NCBI GenBank assembly: GCA_963721735.1
Contig: CAVRKX010000003.1
Coordinates: 18,027-82,026 of the forward strand
DNA: 64,000 nucleotides
Direction of reading: 5' to 3'
Source: an uncultured Actinomycetes bacterium
Lineage (GTDB): Bacteria; Actinomycetota; Thermoleophilia; Solirubrobacterales; 70-9
Made by a program: the position numbers and the translations under genes
Notes under the pieces: model-generated
Told to the model about the DNA's origin: nothing
The model's database searches: none
The model's input: only the letters and a program-made list of their open reading frames with translations
Part shown: positions 561 to 25,060 of the stretch, in pieces
Layout of the letters: every line of letters starts with the position of its first letter
Position numbering within the stretch: position 1 is the stretch's first letter

Positions 561-728
561 CGCAGGTAGGTGAACATGAAGCGAGGAGAGGTAACTCACT
601 CAGCCCGAGGGCAGTGCACGCTCCCCCTTCTAGCCAGTAGACCAGCCAGAAGGTTAATGACGGGTTGCGTTTCGAGTGAGCTGGATGCGAACGGTGTGAA
701 GAAACCAGCCCCGGCGGCCATGCTGAGC

Positions 729-880
729 ATGGGCGCGGCTGGTTTCGAACCAGCGACCTCTCGCGTGTCAAGCGGTGGTCCGTCAGGCACGGATGGGCGT
801 CGTTTTGCGCCTCTGGATGTGCGTCGATGTGCGCGGATGTACGCGCTAACGGGCACCAGAGCCGCTCTGGTGCCCGTTAG
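729..880 (-). repeat. tRNA-Val 3'-half copy A plus type-1 arm
   Basis: Core 729-774 has 1 mismatch, at 769, which changes the anticodon position from CAC to GAC. It is followed by GGATGGGCG, three GATGTGCG-like repeats, and a perfect 14-bp hairpin (846-859 pairing with 867-880). Confidence 0.85.
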
Positions 881-953
881 CGTCAGGGGGCCGAGCCGAC
901 CGCTGTTCAGCTAAGTGCCCCGACGGCGACCAACCCGCTTTCGGATTGGAACG

Positions 954-982
954 TTGACCGCCCGAGGCTCCGGTAGTAGGCT
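954..982 (+). promoter_or_regulatory. sigma-70-like promoter candidate for the delta-60 gene
   Basis: TTGACC (954-959), 17-nt spacer, TAGGCT (977-982, TAnnnT type), about 24 nt upstream of the 1006 start. AT-containing hexamers like these are rare in this GC-rich sequence. Confidence 0.4.
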
Positions 983-1005
983 CGCGAGGAAGCCCCGAGG
1001 CGGGG

Positions 1006-3477
1006 ATGAGAGGAGTGAGCCCGGAGCGGATGAGCGTGCGAAGGCCCGTAAGGAGCGCCGCCGCCCTCGTCGCTGCCCTAATGATCGGCGTCCTCTTCTC
1101 AGCGGGGGCGCAGGCCGCTCCGGGGGACCTCGACCTCACGTTCTCCGGCGACGGCAAGCAGAGGACCGACTTCGGCTTCGGTTCCAGCGGCGCGGCAGCG
1201 ACCGTGCGCCAGCCGGACGGCAAGATCGTCGCGGTCGGCGCCGTCGTCACCAGTTTTGGCGACGACTTCGCGCTCGCCCGCTACAACCCCAACGGGTCGC
1301 TCGACACGAGCTTCTCCGGCGACGGCAGGCAGAGGACGAACTTCGGGGGCGACTCCGACGGGGCGACTGCGGTGGCGCTCCAGACCAACGGCAAGATCGT
1401 CGTGGTCGGCGACACCGGCGCCAGCGACGAGAGTATCGGCGACTTCGCGCTCGCCCGCTACAACCCGAACGGGTCGCTCGACACGAGCTTCTCCGGCGAC
1501 GGCAAGCAGACGACCGACTTCGGGGACTTCGACTTGGCGAACGCGGTGGCGCTCCAGGGCGACGGCAAGATCGTCGCGGTCGGAACCGACTTCAGCGGCT
1601 CGGGCGACTTCGCGCTCGCCCGCTACACCCCGAACGGGTCGCTCGACACGAGCTTCTCCGGCGACGGCAGGCAGACGACCGACTTCGTCGGCAACTTCGA
1701 CGGGGCGACCGGGGTGGCGCTCCAGGCGAACGGCAAGATCGTCGCGGTCGGCGGCGGCGGCACTGCCAGCCGCGACTTCGCACTCGCCCGCTACAACCCG
1801 AACGGGACGCTCGACGCGAGCTTCTCCGGCGATGGCAAGCAGACGACCAACTTCGGGGGCTTCGACCAGGCGAGCGGGGTGGCGCTCCAGGGCGACGGCA
1901 AGATCGTCGCGGTCGGCCACGGTGGCGCCGGCTTCGGCGCGTTCGCACTCGCCCGCTACAACCCGAACGGGACGCTCGACGCGAGCTTCTCCGGCGACGG
2001 CAAGCAGACGACCGACTTCGGGGACTTCGACTTGGCGAACGGGGTGGCGGTCCAGGCGAACGGCAGGATCGTCGCGGTCGGCGGGACCGGCAACGGCTTC
2101 GCCGGCGACTTCGCGCTCGCCCGCTTCAACCCGAACGGCTCGCTCGACACGAGCTTCTCCGGTGACGGCAAGCAGACGACCGAGTTCGGGGGCAACGACG
2201 AGGCGAACGGGGTGGCGCTCCAGGGCGACGGCAAGATCGTGGCGGTGGGCGGCGGGGGCGCCGGCGCCAGCGGCGGCTTCGCACTCGCCCGCTACAACCC
2301 GAACGGGTCGCTCGACGCGAGCTTCTCCGGCGACGGCAAGCAGACGACCAACTTCCCTGGCGGCGACGCGGCTGCCGGCGTGGCGCTCCAGACGGACGGC
2401 AAGATCGTCGCGGTGGGCGGCGCCGGCAGCGTCTTCGAGAGTCGCGACTTCGCGCTCGCCCGCTACAACCCGAACGGCTCGCTCGACGCGAGCTTCTCCG
2501 GCGACGGCAGGCAGACGACCGAGTTCGGGGACGGCGACCGGGCAAACGCGGTGGCGCTCCAGGGCGACGGCAAGATCGTCGCGGTGGGCCGCGCGGGCGG
2601 GGGCGGCTTCGACTTCGCGCTCGCCCGCTACAACCCCAACGGTTCGCTCGACACGAGCTTCTCCGGCGACGGCAAGCAGACGACCGACTTCGGGGGCGCC
2701 AGCACTGAGGCGAACGCGGTGGCGCTCCAGGGCGACGGCAAGATCGTCGTGGTCGGCGTCGCCGGTACCGACTTCGCGCTCGCCCGCTACAACCCGAACG
2801 GGTCGCTCGACACGAGCTTCTCCGGCGATGGCAGGCAGACGACCGACTTCGGGATGATCACCGACCATGCGAACGCGGTGGCGCTCCAGGGCGACGGCAA
2901 GATCGTCGCGGTCGGCGGATTCCCCGCGCTCGGCGTCGGCGACGACTTCTTGCTCGCTCGCTACAACCCCAACGGCTCGCTCGACACGAGCTTCTCCGGC
3001 GACGGCAAGCAGACGACCGACTTCGGGGGCTCCGAGGGGGCAAACGGGGTGGCCTTCCAGGACGGCAAGATCGTCGCGGTCGGCGGGGGCGGGGGCGGGG
3101 GCGACTTCGCGCTCGCCCGCTACAACCCGAACGGCTCGCTCGACACGAGCTTCTCCGGCGACGGCAAGCAGACGACCGAGTTCGGGGGCAACGACGCGGC
3201 GAACGGGGTGGCGCTCCAGGGCGACGGCAAGATCGTCGCGGCGGGCTTCACCGGCGAGTTCGCCACCCCCGGCGACTTCGCGCTCGCCCGTTACAACCCG
3301 AACGGGTCGCTCGACATGAGCTTCTCCGGCGACGGCAGGCAGACGACCAACTTCGGGGGCTCCGACGGGGCGCACGGGGTGGCGCTCCAGGGCGACGGCA
3401 AGATCGTCGCTGTCGGGGTCGGCCTCGGCGCCGACCTTACCTACGATTTCGCGCTTGCTCGCTATTTAGGGGGCTGA
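1006..3477 (+). CDS. secreted delta-60 repeat domain protein (about 14 repeats)
   Basis: 823-aa ORF. N-terminal signal peptide (AALVAALMIGVLFSAGAQA). About 14 copies of a unit of roughly 60 aa, DFALARYNPNGSLDTSFSGDGKQTTDFG..ANGVALQGDGKIVAVG, which is the delta-60 repeat pattern. The long ORFs overlapping it in other frames are GC-rich shadows. Confidence 0.85.
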   Translation: MRGVSPERMSVRRPVRSAAALVAALMIGVLFSAGAQAAPGDLDLTFSGDGKQRTDFGFGSSGAAATVRQPDGKIVAVGAVVTSFGDDFALARYNPNGSLDTSFSGDGRQRTNFGGDSDGATAVALQTNGKIVVVGDTGASDESIGDFALARYNPNGSLDTSFSGDGKQTTDFGDFDLANAVALQGDGKIVAVGTDFSGSGDFALARYTPNGSLDTSFSGDGRQTTDFVGNFDGATGVALQANGKIVAVGGGGTASRDFALARYNPNGTLDASFSGDGKQTTNFGGFDQASGVALQGDGKIVAVGHGGAGFGAFALARYNPNGTLDASFSGDGKQTTDFGDFDLANGVAVQANGRIVAVGGTGNGFAGDFALARFNPNGSLDTSFSGDGKQTTEFGGNDEANGVALQGDGKIVAVGGGGAGASGGFALARYNPNGSLDASFSGDGKQTTNFPGGDAAAGVALQTDGKIVAVGGAGSVFESRDFALARYNPNGSLDASFSGDGRQTTEFGDGDRANAVALQGDGKIVAVGRAGGGGFDFALARYNPNGSLDTSFSGDGKQTTDFGGASTEANAVALQGDGKIVVVGVAGTDFALARYNPNGSLDTSFSGDGRQTTDFGMITDHANAVALQGDGKIVAVGGFPALGVGDDFLLARYNPNGSLDTSFSGDGKQTTDFGGSEGANGVAFQDGKIVAVGGGGGGGDFALARYNPNGSLDTSFSGDGKQTTEFGGNDAANGVALQGDGKIVAAGFTGEFATPGDFALARYNPNGSLDMSFSGDGRQTTNFGGSDGAHGVALQGDGKIVAVGVGLGADLTYDFALARYLGG

Positions 3478-3628
3478 GCCGGTTGAGGTCGGGCGGCGGG
3501 GACGCAGCTCCAGGGACGAGTGGTGGAATCAATAGGGGCCTGTTTCAGATCGTTTCCAGCTCGTCCCCAATTGACTACTCACCGTTTGGCCCGAGTAGAA
3601 AAACCTCACGGGTAGCGGGCCTTCTCTG

Positions 3629-3790
3629 ATGGGCGCGGCTGGTTTCGAAGCAGCGACCTCTCGCGTGTGAAGGCGGTGGTCCCCCAGGTACGGATGGGCG
3701 TTGTTCAGCGCACCTGGATGTGCGCGGATGTGCGCGATGTGCGCGGATGTGCGTGCTAACGGGCACCAGAACGGCTCTGGTGCTCGTTAG
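3629..3790 (-). repeat. tRNA-Val 3'-half copy B plus type-1 arm
   Basis: Core 3629-3675 has one T-stem substitution and a 1-nt insertion. It is followed by GGATGGGCG, four GATGTGCG-like repeats, and a 14-bp hairpin (3756-3769 pairing with 3777-3790, one G-U pair). Confidence 0.85.
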
Positions 3791-3861
3791 CGCGGGGTGC
3801 CCCACGGCGACCCGCTTTCGCTCCTCGCGCTAGGGCGCCATACCTGTTTTCAGAGGCGGCG

Positions 3862-3892
3862 TTGACTGTGCCCCCAGCCTCGGTGGTACGTT
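3862..3892 (+). promoter_or_regulatory. sigma-70-like promoter candidate for the second delta-60 gene
   Basis: TTGACT (3862-3867), 19-nt spacer, TACGTT (3887-3892), upstream of the 3929 start. The region downstream of it is homologous to the 5' region of the 1006 gene. Confidence 0.35.
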
Positions 3893-3928
3893 CGCGCGGA
3901 AGGCGCCCGGAGGTGGGAGGCGAGAGGA

Positions 3929-5197
3929 GTGAGCCCGGAGAGGATGAGCATGCGAAGGCCCGTAAGGAGCGCCACAGCCCTCGTCGCTGCCATGTGGGTC
4001 GCCGCCGTCTTCTCAGCGGGTGCACAGGCGGCCCCGGGGGACCTTGACTTGACCTTCTCCGGGGACGGCAAGCAGAGGACCGACTTCGGGAATACCGACT
4101 TCGCGAACGGGGTGGCGATCCAGGCGGACGGCAAGATCGTCGTGGTCGGTATCGGCGGCGCCGGCGACGACTTCGCGCTCGCCCGCTACAACCCGAACGG
4201 GTCGCTCGACCCAAGCTTCTCCGGGGACGGCAGGCAGACGACGGACTTCGGGGGCTTCGACGCCGCGAGCGGGGTGGCGATCCAAGCGAACGGCAAGATC
4301 GTCGCGGTCGGCCGGGGCCGCGGGGATTTCGCCCTCGCCCGCTACAACCCGAACGGGTCGCTCGACCCGAGCTTTTCGGGTGACGGCAAACGGACGACCG
4401 ATTTCGGGGCCAACGACGCAGCGTACGGGGTGGCGATCCAAGCGGACGGCAGGATCGTCGCGGTCGGCCGGGGCCGGGGGGATTTCGCCCTCGCCCGCTA
4501 CAACCCGAACGGGTCGCTCGACCCGAGCTTCTCCGGGGACGGCAAGCAGACGACGGACTTCGGGGGCTTCGACGAGGGAAGGGGGGTGGCGCTCGGGGCG
4601 AACGGCAAGATCGTCGCGGTCGGCGACGCCGGCGCCGGCGACTTCGCGCTCGCCCGCTACAACGCGGACGGGTCGCTCGACCCGAGCTTCTCCGCGGACG
4701 GCAAGCGCGCCACCGACTTCGGGGGCGACGACGCAGCGTACGGGGTGACGCTCCAGGCGGACGGCAAGATCGTCGCGGTCGGCGGCGGCGGGACCGCGCA
4801 GGCGGGGGTGCTCTTGCATGGAAACGGCGAAAGCTTCGCGCTCGCCCGCTACAACCCGAACGGGTCGCTCGACCCGAGCTTTTCCGGGGACGGCAAGCAG
4901 ACAACCGACTTCGGGGGCTCCGACCGGGCGAGCGGGGTGGAACGTCAGGCGGATGGCAAGATCGTGGTAGTCGGCAACGGCGGCGCCGGCGACGACTTCG
5001 CGCTCGCCCGCTACAACCCCAACGGGTTGCTCGACCCGAGCTTCTCCGCGGACGGCAGGCAGACGACGGACTTCGGGGGCGGCGATGCGGCGCACGGGGT
5101 GGCGCTTCAGGCGAACGGCAAGATCGTCGCGATCGGGCACGGCCTCGGCAGCGATCAACTCCAGGATTTCGCGCTCACTCGCTATCTGGCGAGCTGA
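3929..5197 (+). CDS. secreted delta-60 repeat domain protein (about 7 repeats)
   Basis: 422-aa ORF. Its signal peptide and first repeat are nearly identical to those of the 1006 gene (MSPERMSMRRPVRSATALVAA...AQAAPGDLDLTFSGDGKQRTDFG). It has 7 DFALARYNPNGSLDPSF units. Confidence 0.85.
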   Translation: MSPERMSMRRPVRSATALVAAMWVAAVFSAGAQAAPGDLDLTFSGDGKQRTDFGNTDFANGVAIQADGKIVVVGIGGAGDDFALARYNPNGSLDPSFSGDGRQTTDFGGFDAASGVAIQANGKIVAVGRGRGDFALARYNPNGSLDPSFSGDGKRTTDFGANDAAYGVAIQADGRIVAVGRGRGDFALARYNPNGSLDPSFSGDGKQTTDFGGFDEGRGVALGANGKIVAVGDAGAGDFALARYNADGSLDPSFSADGKRATDFGGDDAAYGVTLQADGKIVAVGGGGTAQAGVLLHGNGESFALARYNPNGSLDPSFSGDGKQTTDFGGSDRASGVERQADGKIVVVGNGGAGDDFALARYNPNGLLDPSFSADGRQTTDFGGGDAAHGVALQANGKIVAIGHGLGSDQLQDFALTRYLAS

Positions 5198-7182: not shown

Positions 7183-7228
7183 AGGGGCGCGGCTGGTTTC
7201 GAACCAGCGACCTCTCGCGTGTGAAGCG
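7183..7228 (-). repeat. tRNA-Val 3'-half copy E (core only)
   Basis: 45 of 46 nt match the consensus block. No long arm follows, only a short GCGTTCCT similarity to copy G. Confidence 0.85.
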
Positions 7229-7328
7229 GTGCGTTCCTCGCGCGCCCGAGGCCCCGCCTTCGATGAGTTCAATGACCGCACCAGGTCTACCTGGCAGGGG
7301 CGCAGCTACCGACCAAAAGGAGACGATC

Positions 7329-7736
7329 ATGAATTGGACGCTCGAAGTTGTGGTGGTCCCGGTCTCGGACGTAGACCGTGCTAAGGCTTTCTATGCCGAG
7401 CAGCTCGGCTTCAAGGTGGATCACGACACAAAGGTCAGTGAGGGAAATCGGATCGTTCAGCTCACCCCTCCCGGGTCCAGCTGTTCGATCGTCGTGGGCG
7501 AGGGCATCGTCCCGGACATGCCAGCGGGCTCGCTCAAGGGCCTGCAGCTGGTCGTCCCCGACATCCATGCCGCACGTGGTCGGCTCAAAGAGCACGAGGT
7601 GGATGTCAGCGAGATCCAGGTCATGGGCGAGAGCCCCAGACGTCAGCCAGACCGACTCGACAATGTCGGATTCGTCTTCTTCAACGATCCGGACGGCAAC
7701 GGCTGGGCCGTGCAGCAGATATCGGCCCGTCGTTAG
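7329..7736 (+). CDS. VOC/glyoxalase family protein
   Basis: ATG at 7329 preceded by an AAGGAG RBS. MNWTLEVVVVPVSDVDRAKAFYAEQLGFKVDHD...FFNDPDGNGWAVQQ is typical of glyoxalase/bleomycin-resistance folds. The 324-aa track ORF is an upstream over-extension. Confidence 0.85.
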   Translation: MNWTLEVVVVPVSDVDRAKAFYAEQLGFKVDHDTKVSEGNRIVQLTPPGSSCSIVVGEGIVPDMPAGSLKGLQLVVPDIHAARGRLKEHEVDVSEIQVMGESPRRQPDRLDNVGFVFFNDPDGNGWAVQQISARR

Positions 7737-7940
7737 TCGGATCGGCCGCTCTACCGCTCGTGGGACGGGCGTCATCAGCCCTCGATGAGCTCGACCTCGG
7801 CGCCCGTCGGCGACGGCGCCACGAAGCTCATCGACATCCTCTCGCAGCTTGCCGTGCCGGGGCTCCCAGGGGCTCGCTGAGCGTGCTAGATGGGGCAGGA
7901 GCGCGGCTGGCTAACGACTACCTGCTTTCTGCGGAGGGGC

Positions 7941-7970
7941 TTGACCGCCCACGGCTTCCGGCTATAGGGT
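7941..7970 (+). promoter_or_regulatory. sigma-70-like promoter candidate
   Basis: TTGACC (7941-7946), 18-nt spacer, TAGGGT (7965-7970), about 55 nt upstream of the 8025 start. Confidence 0.4.
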
Positions 7971-8024
7971 CGGTGCAGAGAAGCCGGTGATGGACCGGAC
8001 AGCCCGAAAGCACGGGGGGATATT

Positions 8025-9785
8025 GTGCGATCACTCAGGTCCAGGCACGGGCAGCGCGCCAGCCGCACGGAGTGCAATCCCAAGACGGCCCGCAAGAAGC
8101 GCTCCGTCATTGGCGCATCCGCCGCGCTCGCGGCAATGTCCGCGCTCGTGGCGCTGATCGGCGCCGCGCCTGCATCCGCCGACTTGAACGGGTGTCAGCC
8201 CAGCCAGACGATTTCGAATCGCCTCCCGTCGGATCTCGTCGGCGCTTCGTTTACGACGAGCGTCAACACAGCGACCTACACGTTCGATTCGCTCGTCGAC
8301 CGCAACCCGGTGGATGGAGTACCGGGGCTGATCGAGTACTGCATCTACCCCGGCTCGCAGCCGCCGGACAGCGTTACGGTGTCGGCCACGGGCGACAACG
8401 GCTCTGCCTGGGAGGATCCACCCACATTCGAGAGCTTTTCGTTCGCTCGTCCCGACGGCAACCCGAGCAACATTGGGCTGGACGGCACCACGACGACGAT
8501 GGGTACCGCTACCTGGAGCGGCGGCGTCCCGCCGAACCAGATCATCGTGCTCCACATCAACGACGCCGCGGAGTGCGATGAGCTCTACGGCGGCAACCCG
8601 GGTACCTGTTGGGTCCTGCCCTCCGGCGCCGCGCCCCCTGAGACGCCCGACGTGACGACGGCTCCGCATTTCCAGGATCACTCGCCCGTGCCGATCGACG
8701 GGGCCTACCCGAACTTCCAGGCCACGGTGGGCGCGATCGTTCACGACTCGGCCACCGTCGGGGGCACCAGCAACGGGACCCCGACGGGCAGCGTGGAGTT
8801 CAGGAAATTCGACAACGGCGACTGCTCCGGGGAGCCGGCGGACACCGAGACGGTGAGTCTGAACAACAGCGGCTTTGCGGATCAGACGGACAACTACGGA
8901 CCGATCACGCAGCAGACGACGCTGTCGTTCCAGGCGTTCTACACGAGCGATAACACCTCGAAGTGGACCAACGAAAGCAGTGCCTGCGAGAAGCTGACCG
9001 TGGTGTGTCAGGTCGCCTTCGCGAGCAAGCGGACCGGCACCGGCGACATCTACCTGATGGAGGGCAGCGCCCAGACGCGGCTGACCACCAGCCCGGCGGT
9101 CGACGGCGAACCTGCCTTCTTCCCCGCGGCCGGCAAGATCGCCTTCGCGAGCAACCGCGCCGGCAACTCGGAGATCTACTCGATGAACGCCACCAACACG
9201 GCCCGGACCCGGCTGACGACCGACCCGGCGGTGGACACCGAACCATCCTGGTCGCCCGACGGGACGAAGATCGCCTTCGCGAGCAACCGGACCGGCGACG
9301 GCGACATCTACGTGATGAACGCCGACGGCACGGGCCAGATGCGGCTCACCACCAATGCGGGCGCCGACCGCTCTCCCGCCTGGTCGCCCGACGGCAATGA
9401 GATCGCCTTCGCGAGCAACCGGACCGGCGCCGGCGACATCTACGTGATGAACGCCGACGGCACGGGCCAGAGGCGGCTGACGGCGAACGCCGCCGTCGAC
9501 GCCGCCCCCGACTGGTCGCCCGACGGGACGAAGATCGCCTTCGCGAGCAAGCGGACCGGCAACGGCGACATCTACCTGATGGACGGGAGCGCCCTGACGC
9601 GGCTGACAACCAACCCGGCGGTCGACGGCGAGCCGTCCTTCTCGCAGCACGCGAGGATCGCCGGCAAGATCGACTTCGTGAGCAACCGCAACGGCGACTC
9701 GGACATCTACGCGATGAACGCCACCGGTGCCCAGTGGCGGCTGACCACGAACGCGGCCCCCGACAGCTCTCCGGACGCTCCTTAG
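8025..9785 (+). CDS. secreted protein with an Ig-like module and a C-terminal TolB-like PD40 beta-propeller
   Basis: 586-aa ORF with a signal peptide (AALAAMSALVALIGAAPASA). The C-terminal third is made of FASNRTGDGDIYVMNADGTGQxRLTTN...SPxWSPDG repeats (PD40/TolB type). It is paralogous to the C-terminus of the 10795-17747 gene. Confidence 0.85.
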   Translation: MRSLRSRHGQRASRTECNPKTARKKRSVIGASAALAAMSALVALIGAAPASADLNGCQPSQTISNRLPSDLVGASFTTSVNTATYTFDSLVDRNPVDGVPGLIEYCIYPGSQPPDSVTVSATGDNGSAWEDPPTFESFSFARPDGNPSNIGLDGTTTTMGTATWSGGVPPNQIIVLHINDAAECDELYGGNPGTCWVLPSGAAPPETPDVTTAPHFQDHSPVPIDGAYPNFQATVGAIVHDSATVGGTSNGTPTGSVEFRKFDNGDCSGEPADTETVSLNNSGFADQTDNYGPITQQTTLSFQAFYTSDNTSKWTNESSACEKLTVVCQVAFASKRTGTGDIYLMEGSAQTRLTTSPAVDGEPAFFPAAGKIAFASNRAGNSEIYSMNATNTARTRLTTDPAVDTEPSWSPDGTKIAFASNRTGDGDIYVMNADGTGQMRLTTNAGADRSPAWSPDGNEIAFASNRTGAGDIYVMNADGTGQRRLTANAAVDAAPDWSPDGTKIAFASKRTGNGDIYLMDGSALTRLTTNPAVDGEPSFSQHARIAGKIDFVSNRNGDSDIYAMNATGAQWRLTTNAAPDSSPDAP

Positions 9786-9885
9786 TCACGCGCATCGTCC
9801 GGATCTCGCACCCGATCCGGCGGTCATGCGGATCGATCCCAGCTTCCAGAGCGCGGCCGCGGCGGTCAGCGACCTGCAGCGACGG

Positions 9886-10012
9886 ATGGGCTGGTTTCGC
9901 GAGATCGAGCGCGCCATACCAAGGATGGGCGTCGTTCGGCGCATCGGATGCGCGCGGATGTGCGTCGATGTGCGCGCTAAGGGGCACCAGAACCGCCTTG
10001 GTGCCCAATCAG
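9886..10012 (-). repeat. degenerate tRNA-Val 3'-half copy C' plus type-1 arm
   Basis: ATGGGCTGGTTTCGCGAGATCGAGCGCG is an eroded core. It is followed by GGATGGGCG, three GATG(C/T)GCG repeats, and a GGGCACCA/TGGTGCCC hairpin, in the same order as copies A and B. Confidence 0.6.
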
Positions 10013-24248: not shown

Positions 24249-24648
24249 CAGAACACTCCTGTAGCTGGTTGGCTTTGGTTGGTCCAACAGTTGAACCGGC
24301 GAATGGCATCAGACTATCGGCACCATGCGTTGAGGCTGGCTGCTCAGAAAGGACAAGCGAGGACGAGAAAGTTGTTGGGGAGGACGCGCTCGCCGCGATG
24401 CCGGACATTCGCCACGAGGTGCAGGAGGTCGCGCCTGACGGCGACGCCGAGCGGTGCATGGTTCGACCTAATAACCGGAGGAACGTTGTGCGGGCGCGCA
24501 ACCAAGCCCCCTCGTCGGAGGAGTAACTCTGCGAACGGAGTGGGAGATTCGAACTAAACGGGCAGAAAGCCGATTCGGCGCCGCCCTGGAGCAGCACCTT
24601 GCTTGCATCATCCTCCCAAAACCTGCCCAATAGCAGGCGTTTTGCGGA

Positions 24649-24720
24649 TGGGCGCGGCTGGTTTCGAACCAGCGACCTCTCGCGTGTGAAGCGAGCGCTC
24701 TCCCACTGAGCTACGCGCCC
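24649..24720 (-). tRNA. tRNA-Val (anticodon CAC)
   Basis: 72-nt cloverleaf read by hand. Acceptor GGGCGCG/CGCGCCC. D arm GCTC-AGTGGGA-GAGC. Anticodon arm CTCGC-TTCACAC-GCGAG. Variable loop AGGTC. T arm GCTGG-TTCGAAA-CCAGC. Discriminator A. CCA is not encoded. Confidence 0.95.
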
Positions 24721-24782: not shown

Positions 24783-25060
24783 TGGACCGTGCTAGGCGGG
24801 GAGGTAGCGGTGCCCTGTCACCCGCAATCCGCTCTAGCGGGGCTGAACGCCCGTCTGAGGGTCGCGGCCTTCGGGGTCGGTACGTCGCGGGCGGCGTTGA
24901 CGGCCAGGTCCCGCGCAATGCGCGCCCGCGAACCAGGTCAGATCCGGAAGGAAGCAGCCTTAAGCGGTAGCGGGCATGTGCCGCGGATCGGCCTGGCTCG
25001 AGCCAGCCACGACGCGAACGCCCGGGGACCGCTCTCGAAGGCGGGCCGCACGGTCCTGCC
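24783..25060 (+). ncRNA. ffs: signal recognition particle RNA, large (Bacillus-type, Alu-domain-containing) form
   Basis: The domain IV core CCAGGTCAGATCCGGAAGGAAGCAGCC lies at about 24933-24959. The Alu-domain block GTGCTAGGCGGGGAGGTAGCGGTGCCCTGTCACCCGCAATCCGCTCTAGCGGGG is collinear with B. subtilis scRNA as I recall it. Terminal helix GGACCGTGC (24784-24792) pairs with GCACGGTCC (25048-25056). A TAGGAT -10-like hexamer sits at 24771-24776. Ends are accurate to about 10 nt. Confidence 0.85.

What the first reader, a model, noticed from the sequence alone, without database searches (positions are those of the whole stretch)
775..880. Type-1 arm next to tRNA halves A, B and C': reiterated GGATG(G/T)GCG motif plus a conserved 14-bp hairpin
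SEEN: three modules (729-880, 3629-3790, 9886-10012) continue beyond the tRNA block with the same architecture. First comes a second GGATGGGCG, which copies the junction of the tRNA 3' end with its flank (GCGGATGGGCGCGG at the intact gene). Then come 3-4 tandem (G)GATGTGCG(C) units. Last is the hairpin CTAACGGGCACCAG-N7-CTGGTGCCCGTTAG, which is perfect in A, has one G-U pair in B and is shortened in C'. That gives 5-6 copies of one 9-mer within about 130 bp.

KNOWN: attP arms of tyrosine-recombinase elements carry reiterated arm-type binding sites.

INFERENCE: these could be arm-type recombinase sites of one element family. The hairpin could be a terminator insulating the cassette, or a folded single-strand recombination substrate.
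Basis: partly seen in the sequence, partly recalled or inferred. Interest (0 to 1): 0.6.

Follow-up and report, generated by a model that had tools for sequence, protein, structure and literature searches.

The report
Integrase docking arm beside tRNA-Val halves
This roughly 110-base stretch is the protein-docking arm of a recombination (attachment) site left by small mobile elements that insert into the valine tRNA gene; the mechanism is an ordinary one, but here it survives on gene cassettes that have lost their integrase and are stacked ten deep.

Summary
Three modules (730-880, 3630-3790, about 9884-10010) each carry a tRNA-Val 3' half, a GGATGGGCG box, 3-4 GGATGTGCG units one helical turn apart, and a GGGCACCAG-N7-CTGGTGCCC palindrome. 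A model built from 32 copies finds exactly these three strong copies in the 2.6-Mb genome. About 65 copies occur in roughly 25 related genomes. Nearly all lie directly after a tRNA half: Val-CAC, or Ala-CGC in two other genera.

The "hairpin" is an inverted pair of a 9-bp site. The same site occurs as a direct pair, 10 bp apart, 100±3 nt on the other side of the tRNA half. In autonomous relatives that pair lies inside the 3' end of a three-domain tyrosine integrase gene. The variable letters of the site (CACC, CAGA, CACT, CAGC, CAAA) agree between the two arms in 10 of 11 complete integrase-bearing elements and in 6 of 6 integrase-less cassettes. So the palindrome is a sequence-specific protein site, not a terminator or a single-strand fold.

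The GGAT units are phased sites for an unidentified partner. No integrase of this family was found in this genome, so the cassettes are non-autonomous leftovers.

The parts
730..774 (-). tRNA-Val 3' half, copy A (anticodon stem to 3' end; anticodon position reads GAC instead of CAC): the core or crossover duplication
   Evidence: identical to 24649-24693 of the intact gene except for one base
775..799 (+). linker with the conserved box CAGGCAC-GGATGGGCG (box 791-799)
   Evidence: >=90% conserved in 32 aligned arms; reads GGATAGGCG or GAATAGGCG in other genera
815..843 (+). three phased units (815-823, 826-833, 835-843), 10-bp period; the conserved core is GGAT(G)
   Evidence: GAT is invariant at a 10-bp period; copy number is 2-5, and insertions or deletions come in whole 10-bp units
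851..875 (.). inverted pair of the 9-bp site GGGCACCAG (851-859 and 867-875) around a variable 7-nt spacer; the extended palindrome is 845-881
   Evidence: the same word occurs as a direct pair 100 nt left of tRNA halves in relatives
3630..3675 (-). tRNA-Val 3' half, copy B
3676..3790 (+). type-1 arm B: box 3692-3700; four units at 3716, 3726, 3736, 3745; inverted pair 3761-3769 / 3777-3785 (one C>T change)
   Evidence: model R1 scores 114 bits
9884..9921 (-). degraded tRNA-Val half C'
9923..10010 (+). type-1 arm C': box 9923-9931; units at 9946, 9956, 9967; inverted pair 9982-9990 / 9998-10006; then AATC
   Evidence: model R1 scores 88 bits
24649..24720 (-). intact tRNA-Val(CAC), the head of the array and the integration target
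24560..24569 (+). single GGGCAGAAAG word 89 nt from the tRNA 3' end: a remnant of the integrase-proximal arm of a type-2 (CAGA) element

Best explanation
The stretch is the integrase-distal arm of an attachment site. In lambda terms it is a P'-like arm, now part of the outer junction of an integrated cassette. The site belongs to a family of tyrosine integrases with an arm-binding domain, a core-binding domain and a catalytic domain. These integrases insert small elements at the anticodon-loop region of tRNA genes in this actinobacterial family.

The 45-nt tRNA-Val 3' half is the core duplication left by strand exchange. The 'hairpin' is two inverted copies of a 9-bp arm-type word, GGGCACCAG. 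Two direct copies of the same word, 10 bp apart, sit 100±3 nt on the other side of the core, and the integrase reading frame runs through them. In the circular form both sets flank one core, and the integrase N-terminal domains would bridge them to the core.

The GGATG(T/G)GCG units (2-5 copies, one helical turn apart, ending at the inverted pair) are a second set of sites. They are most likely where an excisionase-type directionality factor, another bending protein or further integrase subunits line up on one face of the DNA and fold the arm back onto the core.

No integrase of that family was found in this genome, and the three type-1 cassettes lack the integrase-proximal pair. They are therefore non-autonomous remnants (like cis-mobilizable elements, CIMEs) that could move only with help from an incoming element.

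Shown here: the anatomy, the distribution, the association with tRNA halves, the co-variation between the arms, and the integrase family with its domains. Inferred: which protein binds which word, and whether these copies are still active.
For: 1. Specificity of place. In the whole genome only three strong copies exist (114, 108 and 88 bits), all directly after tRNA-Val halves. The next best hits score 24-32 bits: the palindromes of A and B matched again on the opposite strand, and arms beside a tRNA-Gly island.
2. Distribution. I collected 65 copies from about 25 related genomes or contigs by searching within 150 nt after a tRNA half. Searches that did not use the half confirm the association. 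The half is Val-CAC in the window's genus and Ala-CGC in two other genera, and the arm begins at the same GAAGCG junction.
3. Phasing. GAT is invariant at a 10-bp period. Copy-number changes come in whole 10-bp units. Where the last unit lies further from the palindrome, the extra distance is 11 nt.
4. Sequence, not structure, is conserved. The 9-bp core is 96% paired, but only 2 of 9 pairs show any change on both sides, and the spacer is variable.
5. The word recurs on the other side of the core. Of 19 loose hits to GGGCAnnnnnGGGCA in 800 kb, 8 lie 99-102 nt left of a tRNA half.
6. A cognate integrase family exists. It is found in 86 of 301 genomes of the family. In 21 of 30 loci its 3' end runs through such a pair, and wherever a tRNA was detected next to the pair it lies 100-105 nt away. 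Its domains are Phage_integrase, Phage_int_M/SAM-like and, for one member, Arm-DNA-bind_2.
7. Co-variation between the two arms. In 11 complete integrase-bearing elements the variable letters agree fully in 7, are consistent in 3 with a shortened palindrome, and one element has only a single site. In 6 of 6 integrase-less cassettes with both ends known, the proximal pair matches the distal arm type.
8. An integrase running through exactly GGGCACCAATGGGCACC, 102 nt from tRNA-Val(CAC), exists at G477:C5:77416-78696.
9. Published precedent. Lambda Int bridges arm-type and core sites with bending proteins in between (PMC4880445). ICEMlSymR7A attP has five arm-type sites, and winged-helix directionality factors line up one DNA turn apart (PMC11963761).
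Against: There are no binding or recombination data.

No autonomous element was found with a canonical type-1 distal arm. The G477 element has a shortened palindrome (GGGCACTAGTGCCC) and a different proximal part.

Type-1 arms are well kept in complete genomes whose only tyrosine recombinases are XerC/XerD-like and which have no serine recombinase (G114, G159). They therefore persist without a resident cognate enzyme.

No excisionase gene was found among ORFs of 90 aa or more in the one complete element I searched, so the partner of the GGAT units is unknown.

In other genera many cargo genes converge on the palindrome and stop 20-40 nt before it, so it may also stop transcription.

The window's genome is 85% complete, so the absence of the integrase is not proven.
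Confidence: 0.72

Rival explanations
1. The arm is a relic with no present function in this genome. It began as an attachment-site arm but is now inert DNA, kept only because the cassettes are young or were recently transferred.
For: No integrase of the family was found in G000. The three cassettes lack the integrase-proximal pair. Copy C' has a degraded half and a weak palindrome. Complete genomes with type-1 arms have only XerC/D-like recombinases.
Against: Arms stay 75-95% identical across four genera and at least 14 unrelated cargo groups, while the sequence right after the palindrome is unrelated. Copy-number changes keep the 10-bp phase. Arm A is closer to arms in other species (up to 91%) than to arm B (83%), which points to spread or selection rather than local decay.
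Confidence: 0.3
2. The palindrome is mainly a factor-independent transcription terminator or insulator between cassettes, and the repeats are incidental.
For: The stem is strong. In other genera, cargo genes on the opposite strand stop 20-40 nt before it. The same stem sequence appears in two unrelated viral contigs at intergenic places.
Against: There is no T-run on either strand. Sequence, not pairing, is conserved. The same word occurs as a direct pair that cannot fold, at a fixed 100 nt from the core, and it co-varies with the palindrome. In the window the cargo genes start after the palindrome rather than ending at it.
Confidence: 0.1
3. The palindrome is a folded single-strand recombination substrate, like an integron attC site.
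For: The setting is an array of single-gene cassettes, each with a palindrome at a fixed end. The predicted single-strand fold is strong.
Against: No integron integrase and no recombinase at all lies at the array. Cassette borders are 45-nt direct repeats of a tRNA half, as expected for double-strand exchange. The stem sequence is invariant and there are no conserved extrahelical bases. The direct-pair version on the other arm cannot fold.
Confidence: 0.04
4. The module is a structured RNA, such as a leader, a small RNA or a tRNA-like 3' element.
For: It lies next to a tRNA fragment and ahead of plus-strand cargo genes in the window. Its overall fold z-score is about -5.5 on both strands.
Against: There is no Rfam match. 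RNAalifold finds only 12 pairs, mostly in the palindrome. There is almost no covariation. Cargo orientation relative to the arm varies among cassettes. An earlier follow-up of the sister type-2 arm also found no RNA support (an unchecked note).
Confidence: 0.03

Closest known systems
Arm-type sites of lambda-like (heterobivalent) tyrosine integrase attP sites (lambda P and P' arms; PMC4880445)
   Same: Short words lie outside the core on both sides of the crossover region, and the integrase has a small N-terminal arm-binding domain. A region between the core and the arm words has phased sites where a bending protein would act.
   Different: The distal pair is a perfect inverted repeat with a 7-nt spacer, not tandem direct sites. 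The proximal pair lies inside the open reading frame of the integrase tail. The words come in at least five specificity variants. Binding is untested.
ICEMlSymR7A attP with five IntS arm-type sites and the filament-forming winged-helix directionality factor RdfS (PMC11963761)
   Same: A tRNA-targeting element with several arm-type words. The directionality factor binds between arm sites, and related proteins sit one DNA turn apart.
   Different: No directionality-factor gene has been identified here. The GGAT units have a clear consensus, whereas RdfS sites have none.
Cis-mobilizable elements (CIMEs) and tandem accretion at tRNA genes (reviewed in PMC5704250; Pavlovic 2004 and Bellanger 2011 are cited there)
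   Same: The elements have lost their integrase but keep att junctions. They sit stacked in tandem at the 3' end of one tRNA gene.
   Different: The stack is up to ten units deep, and most units carry a single gene and are 0.6-3 kb long. Most keep only the distal arm. There is no integrase debris. The pattern is seen in dozens of species of one family.
Tycheposons and tRNA-flanked islands of Prochlorococcus (bioRxiv 10.1101/2020.12.28.424599)
   Same: Successive integrations at one tRNA push older elements outward. Partial tRNAs separate cargo modules, and degenerate remnants remain.
   Different: The host phylum and the integrase family are different. That paper does not describe a conserved arm module retained on integrase-less units.
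Integron attC sites
   Same: A palindrome is associated with each cassette in an ordered array of mostly promoter-carrying single genes.
   Different: There is no IntI and no attI. Cassette borders are tRNA-half direct repeats. The word sequence rather than the fold is conserved.
Mycobacteriophage L5 attP, with pairs of arm-type sites and four tandem Xis sites between the core and the P1/P2 pair
   Same: The order is core, then about four phased tandem sites, then a pair of arm-type sites, in an actinobacterial tRNA-targeting system.
   Different: The sequences are unrelated, and the L5 pairs are direct repeats. This resemblance is a lead only.

Membership tests
attP/att-junction arm of a heterobivalent tyrosine integrase | Lies directly beside the core (crossover) duplication | tested here: met
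   All three window copies, and all 13 strong model hits in genus relatives, start right after a tRNA-Val 3' half.
attP/att-junction arm of a heterobivalent tyrosine integrase | The same short word is reiterated on both arms of the site | tested here: met
   In relatives, a GGGCAnn inverted pair lies on the distal arm and a direct pair lies 100±3 nt on the proximal side. The variable letters agree in 10 of 11 elements and in 6 of 6 cassettes. The window copies themselves have only the distal arm.
attP/att-junction arm of a heterobivalent tyrosine integrase | The cognate integrase has an extra N-terminal arm-binding domain | tested here: met
   PF00589 and PF22022/PF14659 match all three integrases tested. 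PF12167 (Arm-DNA-bind_2) scores 22.4 bits against a cut-off of 22 for the G004 member. The N-terminal 70 residues are alike in all three by eye. Support is marginal for the other two.
attP/att-junction arm of a heterobivalent tyrosine integrase | The integrase is encoded in the element or the genome | tested here: not met
   There is no tyrosine or serine recombinase on the contig and no member of the family in G000, which is 85% complete. So these are copies of the arm without their enzyme.
attP/att-junction arm of a heterobivalent tyrosine integrase | Physical binding of the integrase N-terminal domain to the word, and a requirement for it in recombination | not testable with these tools
   This needs gel-shift (EMSA) or footprinting experiments and recombination assays.
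Cis-mobilizable element (CIME) | [quoted passage not shown] | tested here: met
   The cassettes are bounded by direct tRNA halves and their cargo genes include no recombinase.
Cis-mobilizable element (CIME) | Both junctions are still usable, and the element is mobilised with a helper | tested here: inconclusive
   The proximal pair is absent at 3637, 5264 and 10542. Arrays differ between species by whole cassettes.
Integron attC | An integron integrase and attI at the head of the array, and a fold-dependent site with a variable sequence | tested here: not met
Intrinsic terminator | A G+C-rich stem followed by a T-run | tested here: not met
   The terminator scan of 600-4100 does not report the 846-880 stem, and there is no T-run on either side.
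REP-like dispersed palindrome | Many copies at gene ends across the genome | tested here: not met
   There are five palindromes in 2.58 Mb. Three are at tRNA-Val halves and two are in a tRNA-Gly island.

The most novel reading that the evidence does not exclude
The type-1 and type-2 arms mark a non-autonomous gene-cassette system resembling an integron in function. Single accessory genes are joined to a roughly 160-bp module (tRNA half plus arm). Integrases of one family whose arm-word specificity matches (CACC, CAGA and others) capture, stack and reshuffle these cassettes at tRNA genes in trans. The array acts as a family-wide reservoir of accessory genes, and the arm words act as a recognition code that can be retargeted from one tRNA to another (Val to Ala).
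Probability: 0.25. Interest if true: 0.7.

Novelty: new member of a known kind. Interest (0 to 1): 0.4.

Why it matters
The finding turns an unexplained repeat-plus-hairpin into a testable site map for an undescribed integrase family of uncultured soil Actinomycetes: a core, phased GGAT sites, and paired GGGCAnn words on both arms.

The words exist in at least five natural variants that co-vary between the two arms, and the same arm is found joined to two different tRNA cores. The family therefore offers a natural series for asking how arm-site specificity and target choice evolve in tyrosine integrases. Such a series could also be of use for orthogonal integration tools.

It also explains the anatomy of unusually long arrays of integrase-less cassettes. 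Those arrays appear to be a main place where these small genomes (2-3.5 Mb) keep variable secreted and accessory genes.

Tried and rejected
- Looking for an integrase in cis: none on the contig, and none in any type-1 cassette of about 25 genomes.
- Joining G022:C4 (a type-1 arm at the contig end) to G022:C42 (an integrase next to tRNA-Val): no overlap.
- The integrase next to a type-1-like box in G004 at 587 kb: its homologues elsewhere show no link to type-1 arms.
- Plasmid and phage collections: only the tRNA part matches.
- Viral contigs: only unrelated tandem repeats or terminator-like stems.
- Metagenome contigs: five more array pieces and no autonomous element.
- Xer recombinases as the enzyme: considered because some genomes have nothing else, but rejected. 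The palindrome does not resemble what I recall of a dif site, and the arm words match a different integrase family.
- Iterons of a replication origin: rejected, because no replication gene is present and the position relative to a tRNA half is fixed.
- Promoter: no sigma-70-like site lies in the arm.
- Far ends of the G019:C37 and G452 elements: not found within 20 kb.

Full report
**What is in the sequence.** The window is G000:C3:18027-82026 of a 2.58-Mb, 70% G+C, 85%-complete metagenome-assembled genome. Its close relatives are deposited as uncultured Actinomycetes or Solirubrobacterales bacteria from the Microflora Danica survey. One intact tRNA-Val(CAC) lies at 24649-24720 on the minus strand, next to the SRP RNA (24787-25053) and dnaX. 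Downstream of its 3' end there are nine more copies of its last 45 nt (anticodon stem to 3' end), all in the same orientation, plus one degraded copy. They start at 737, 3637, 5264, 7191, about 9886, 10542, 17855, 18836, 21822 and 23720. They cut the region into cassettes of 0.65-7.3 kb. The cargo is ordinary: DUF5122 propellers, an AMP-binding enzyme, PD40 proteins, an AHSA1-family protein and an esterase. No tyrosine or serine recombinase lies on this contig.

**The observation.** Module A has the half at 730-774, GGATGGGCG at 791-799, three units at 815, 826 and 835, and a perfect palindrome at 846-859 / 867-880. Module B has the box at 3692, four units and one C>T change in the palindrome. 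Module C' has a degraded half, three units and a 9-bp palindrome only. The 9-mer occurs 14 times in the window against 2.5 expected. Stems A and B fold far better than shuffled sequence (z -9.1 and -7.1), while C' does not (z -1.8). Three points need correcting. First, the likeness to the tRNA junction is only ATGGGCG and is not kept in other genera. Second, the 14-bp stem is specific to one lineage. Third, the three modules are a subset of ten.

**Is it a generic repeat?** It is not. Exact and near-exact searches of all 21 contigs find the unit clusters and the stem only at these three places, plus two palindromes on contig C2. One of those ends an arm next to an extra tRNA-Gly(GCC) half. In the whole genome it gives three strong hits (114, 108 and 88 bits for B, A and C'). 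The remaining hits score 24-32 bits: A and B matched again on the opposite strand, and the two C2 arms. In genus relatives all 13 strong hits (56 bits or more) are places I had already seen directly after a tRNA-Val half.

**Comparative picture.** The arm occurs in many species of the same genus, with up to four or five copies per array. At 70-86% identity it also occurs in three further genera of the family. I collected 65 distinct copies lying within 150 nt after a tRNA half. In two of those genera the same arm follows a 3' half of tRNA-Ala(CGC) instead of tRNA-Val, and it begins at the same GAAGCG junction in the anticodon loop. A few decayed copies lack the half.

The alignments show four things:
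- The box CAGGCAC-GGAT(G/A)GGCG is conserved.
- GAT is invariant every 10 bp, while the rest of each unit drifts between genera.
- There are two to five units, and insertions or deletions come in whole units.
- Conservation ends sharply at CTGGTGCCC plus AAT(C/G) or GTTAGC, after which the cargo sequences are unrelated.

Type-1 arms are joined to at least 14 unrelated cargo groups, and array content and order differ between species. For example, the AHSA1 cassette with arm C' directly follows the AMP-binding cassette in G031. In this window a two-gene cassette (7191-9886) lies between them.

**The palindrome is a pair of protein sites.** Across 57 distinct copies the 9-bp core is 96% paired, but it is almost invariant in sequence. 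Only 2 of 9 pairs show any change on both sides, the 7-nt spacer varies freely, and the 6-bp extension pairs in only 45% of cells. That pattern fits two sequence-specific half-sites better than a fold under selection.

The decisive observation is that the same word occurs on the other side of the tRNA half as a direct pair 10 bp apart. GGGCACCAATGGGCACC(AG) lies 100-102 nt left of the tRNA 3' end in G031 (Val) and in G238 and G118 (Ala). The sister type-2 arm, whose palindrome is GGGCAGAGAG...CTTTCTGCCC, has GGGCAGAAATGGGCAGAA at the same distance in five places. Of 19 loose hits to the pair motif in 800 kb, 8 lie 99-102 nt from a half. In every integrase-less cassette where both ends are known (six cases), the variant of the proximal pair matches the type of the distal arm.

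**The enzyme.** An integrase abutting the intact tRNA-Val in G019:C37 has its open frame running through GGGCAGAATTGGGCAGAAAT. Its family is present in 86 of 301 genomes of the bacterial family. In 21 of the 30 best loci the 3' end of the gene runs through such a pair. Wherever a tRNA was detected beside the pair it lies 100-105 nt away; the tRNAs are Val-CAC, Val-GAC, Ile, Gly, Arg and Met. The variable letters read CAGA, CACT, CAGC, CACC/CACG or CAAA. The proteins have catalytic and core-binding domains, and the G004 member also matches the arm DNA-binding domain PF12167 just above its cut-off.

Eleven complete elements with both junctions were recovered. In seven, the distal arm carries an inverted pair of the very same word: G004 CACT, G333 CAGC, G280 CAGC, G262 CAGC, G435 CAAA, G008 CAGA, and G594 with CAGT plus CAGA in both arms. 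In three (G250, G446, G477) the palindrome is shortened to GGGCAC..GTGCCC but is consistent with the proximal pair. One (G522) has a single site. All of these distal arms also carry GAT(T) repeats 10-11 bp apart that end at the inverted pair. An integrase running through exactly the type-1 word, 102 nt from tRNA-Val(CAC), exists at G477:C5:77416-78696. A near variant is at G598:C1.

**Mechanism proposed.** By analogy with lambda Int, the N-terminal domain binds arm-type words and the rest of the protein binds the core, with bending proteins in between (PMC4880445). I therefore read GGGCACCAG as the arm-type word of a CACC-specific integrase. I read the tRNA half as the core, with exchange in the anticodon-loop region where the identity between copies ends. 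The phased GGAT units are then the place where a bending or directionality factor, or further integrase subunits, line up on one face of the helix. Winged-helix directionality factors and their relatives bind head to tail, one DNA turn apart (PMC11963761). Which protein binds the GGAT units is inferred, not shown. No excisionase gene was found among ORFs of 90 aa or more in the one complete element I searched.

**Status of the window copies.** No integrase of this family was found in G000, and the three cassettes lack the proximal pair. They match the published notion of decayed, cis-mobilizable elements stacked by accretion at a tRNA gene (PMC5704250). They also match tRNA-flanked islands built by successive integrations (bioRxiv 10.1101/2020.12.28.424599). 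What is unusual is the depth of the stack, the single-gene size of the units and the good conservation of the distal arm. That conservation holds even in complete genomes whose only recombinases are XerC/D-like (G114, G159).

**Rivals.**
- Terminator or insulator role: no T-run, and it cannot explain the direct pair or the co-variation. It may still be a side effect where cargo genes converge on the stem.
- Single-strand attC-like substrate: contradicted by the tRNA-half direct repeats and by the invariant stem sequence.
- Structured RNA: no Rfam match, almost no covariation and variable cargo orientation.
- Inert relic: this concerns present activity rather than identity. I give it 0.3.

**Verdict.** The feature is a new member of a known kind: the attachment-site arm of a tRNA-targeting tyrosine integrase family. 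It now has a concrete, testable site map and a natural series of specificity variants. Interest is moderate (0.4). The more novel reading, an integron-like cassette system served in trans, is not excluded (0.25).

Noticed in passing
window 729-24720: Ten same-orientation copies of the 45-nt tRNA-Val 3' half, plus one degraded copy, divide 24 kb into cassettes. At least three arm types occur: type 1; type 2 (GGATTAC units plus a GGGCAGAGAG palindrome); and others. Arrays of 3-10 such units are common across the genus.
   Followed up: partly
window 3542-3559: GTTTCAgatcGTTTCCAg is a direct pair 10 bp apart, about 80-88 nt left of half B. Similar GTTTCCA or GCTTCCA pairs flank tRNA-Val in G114, G238 and G211, and occur in 'other' arms (L041 near 6544, L052 near 6303). 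This may be the arm word of another integrase family.
   Followed up: no
window about 655-728; also L051 (G004:C1 587.0-587.25 kb, tandem), L031, L035, L053: A mini-element lies just left of some halves. It consists of part of the acceptor and T-arm sequence, an insert of about 25 nt, and GAAACCAGCCCC, which can pair back to the T-arm piece.
   Followed up: no
L105, L107, L101, L102, L109 (genera g17 and g25): The same type-1 arm follows 3' halves of tRNA-Ala(CGC) instead of tRNA-Val, with the shared junction GAAGCG. The core has been swapped while the arm was kept.
   Followed up: partly
L191, L192, L194, L195, L197: For integrases of the same family next to tRNA-Arg(TCT/CCT) and tRNA-Met, the integrase 3' end faces the tRNA 5' end. 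The duplicated piece at the far junction is the tRNA 5' half, so insertion is on the upstream side of the gene.
   Followed up: partly
G000 contigs C2, C5, C9, C11, C15: Extra 3' halves also exist for tRNA-Gly(GCC), Cys, Pro(GGG), Met, Arg(CCG), Arg(ACG) and Lys(CTT). Contig C11 holds a 2.6-kb element with a 305-aa integrase abutting tRNA-Arg(CCG). The Lys and Met arms carry their own short direct repeats (GTTGCCCA).
   Followed up: partly
L148, L149, L154, L157: The proximal arm words lie inside the open reading frame of the integrase tail (..DWAELGRN.., ..EWALTGTN.., ..DWAPMGTS..). The frame stays open into the tRNA.
   Followed up: partly
L043 16123-17400 (G008:C8): The integrase of the complete type-2 element next to tRNA-Val is interrupted by an in-frame stop. 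It is also inverted relative to the usual orientation.
   Followed up: no
window 730-774: Half A reads GAC at the anticodon position where all the others read CAC. The genome also has a separate tRNA-Val(GAC) gene on contig C2, but its 3' half is different.
   Followed up: partly
L061-L092 (unrelated taxa): Tandem GATGTGCG-NN repeats occur sporadically in unrelated bacteria and viral contigs without the stem or a tRNA half. These are simple repeats and are not this module.
   Followed up: yes
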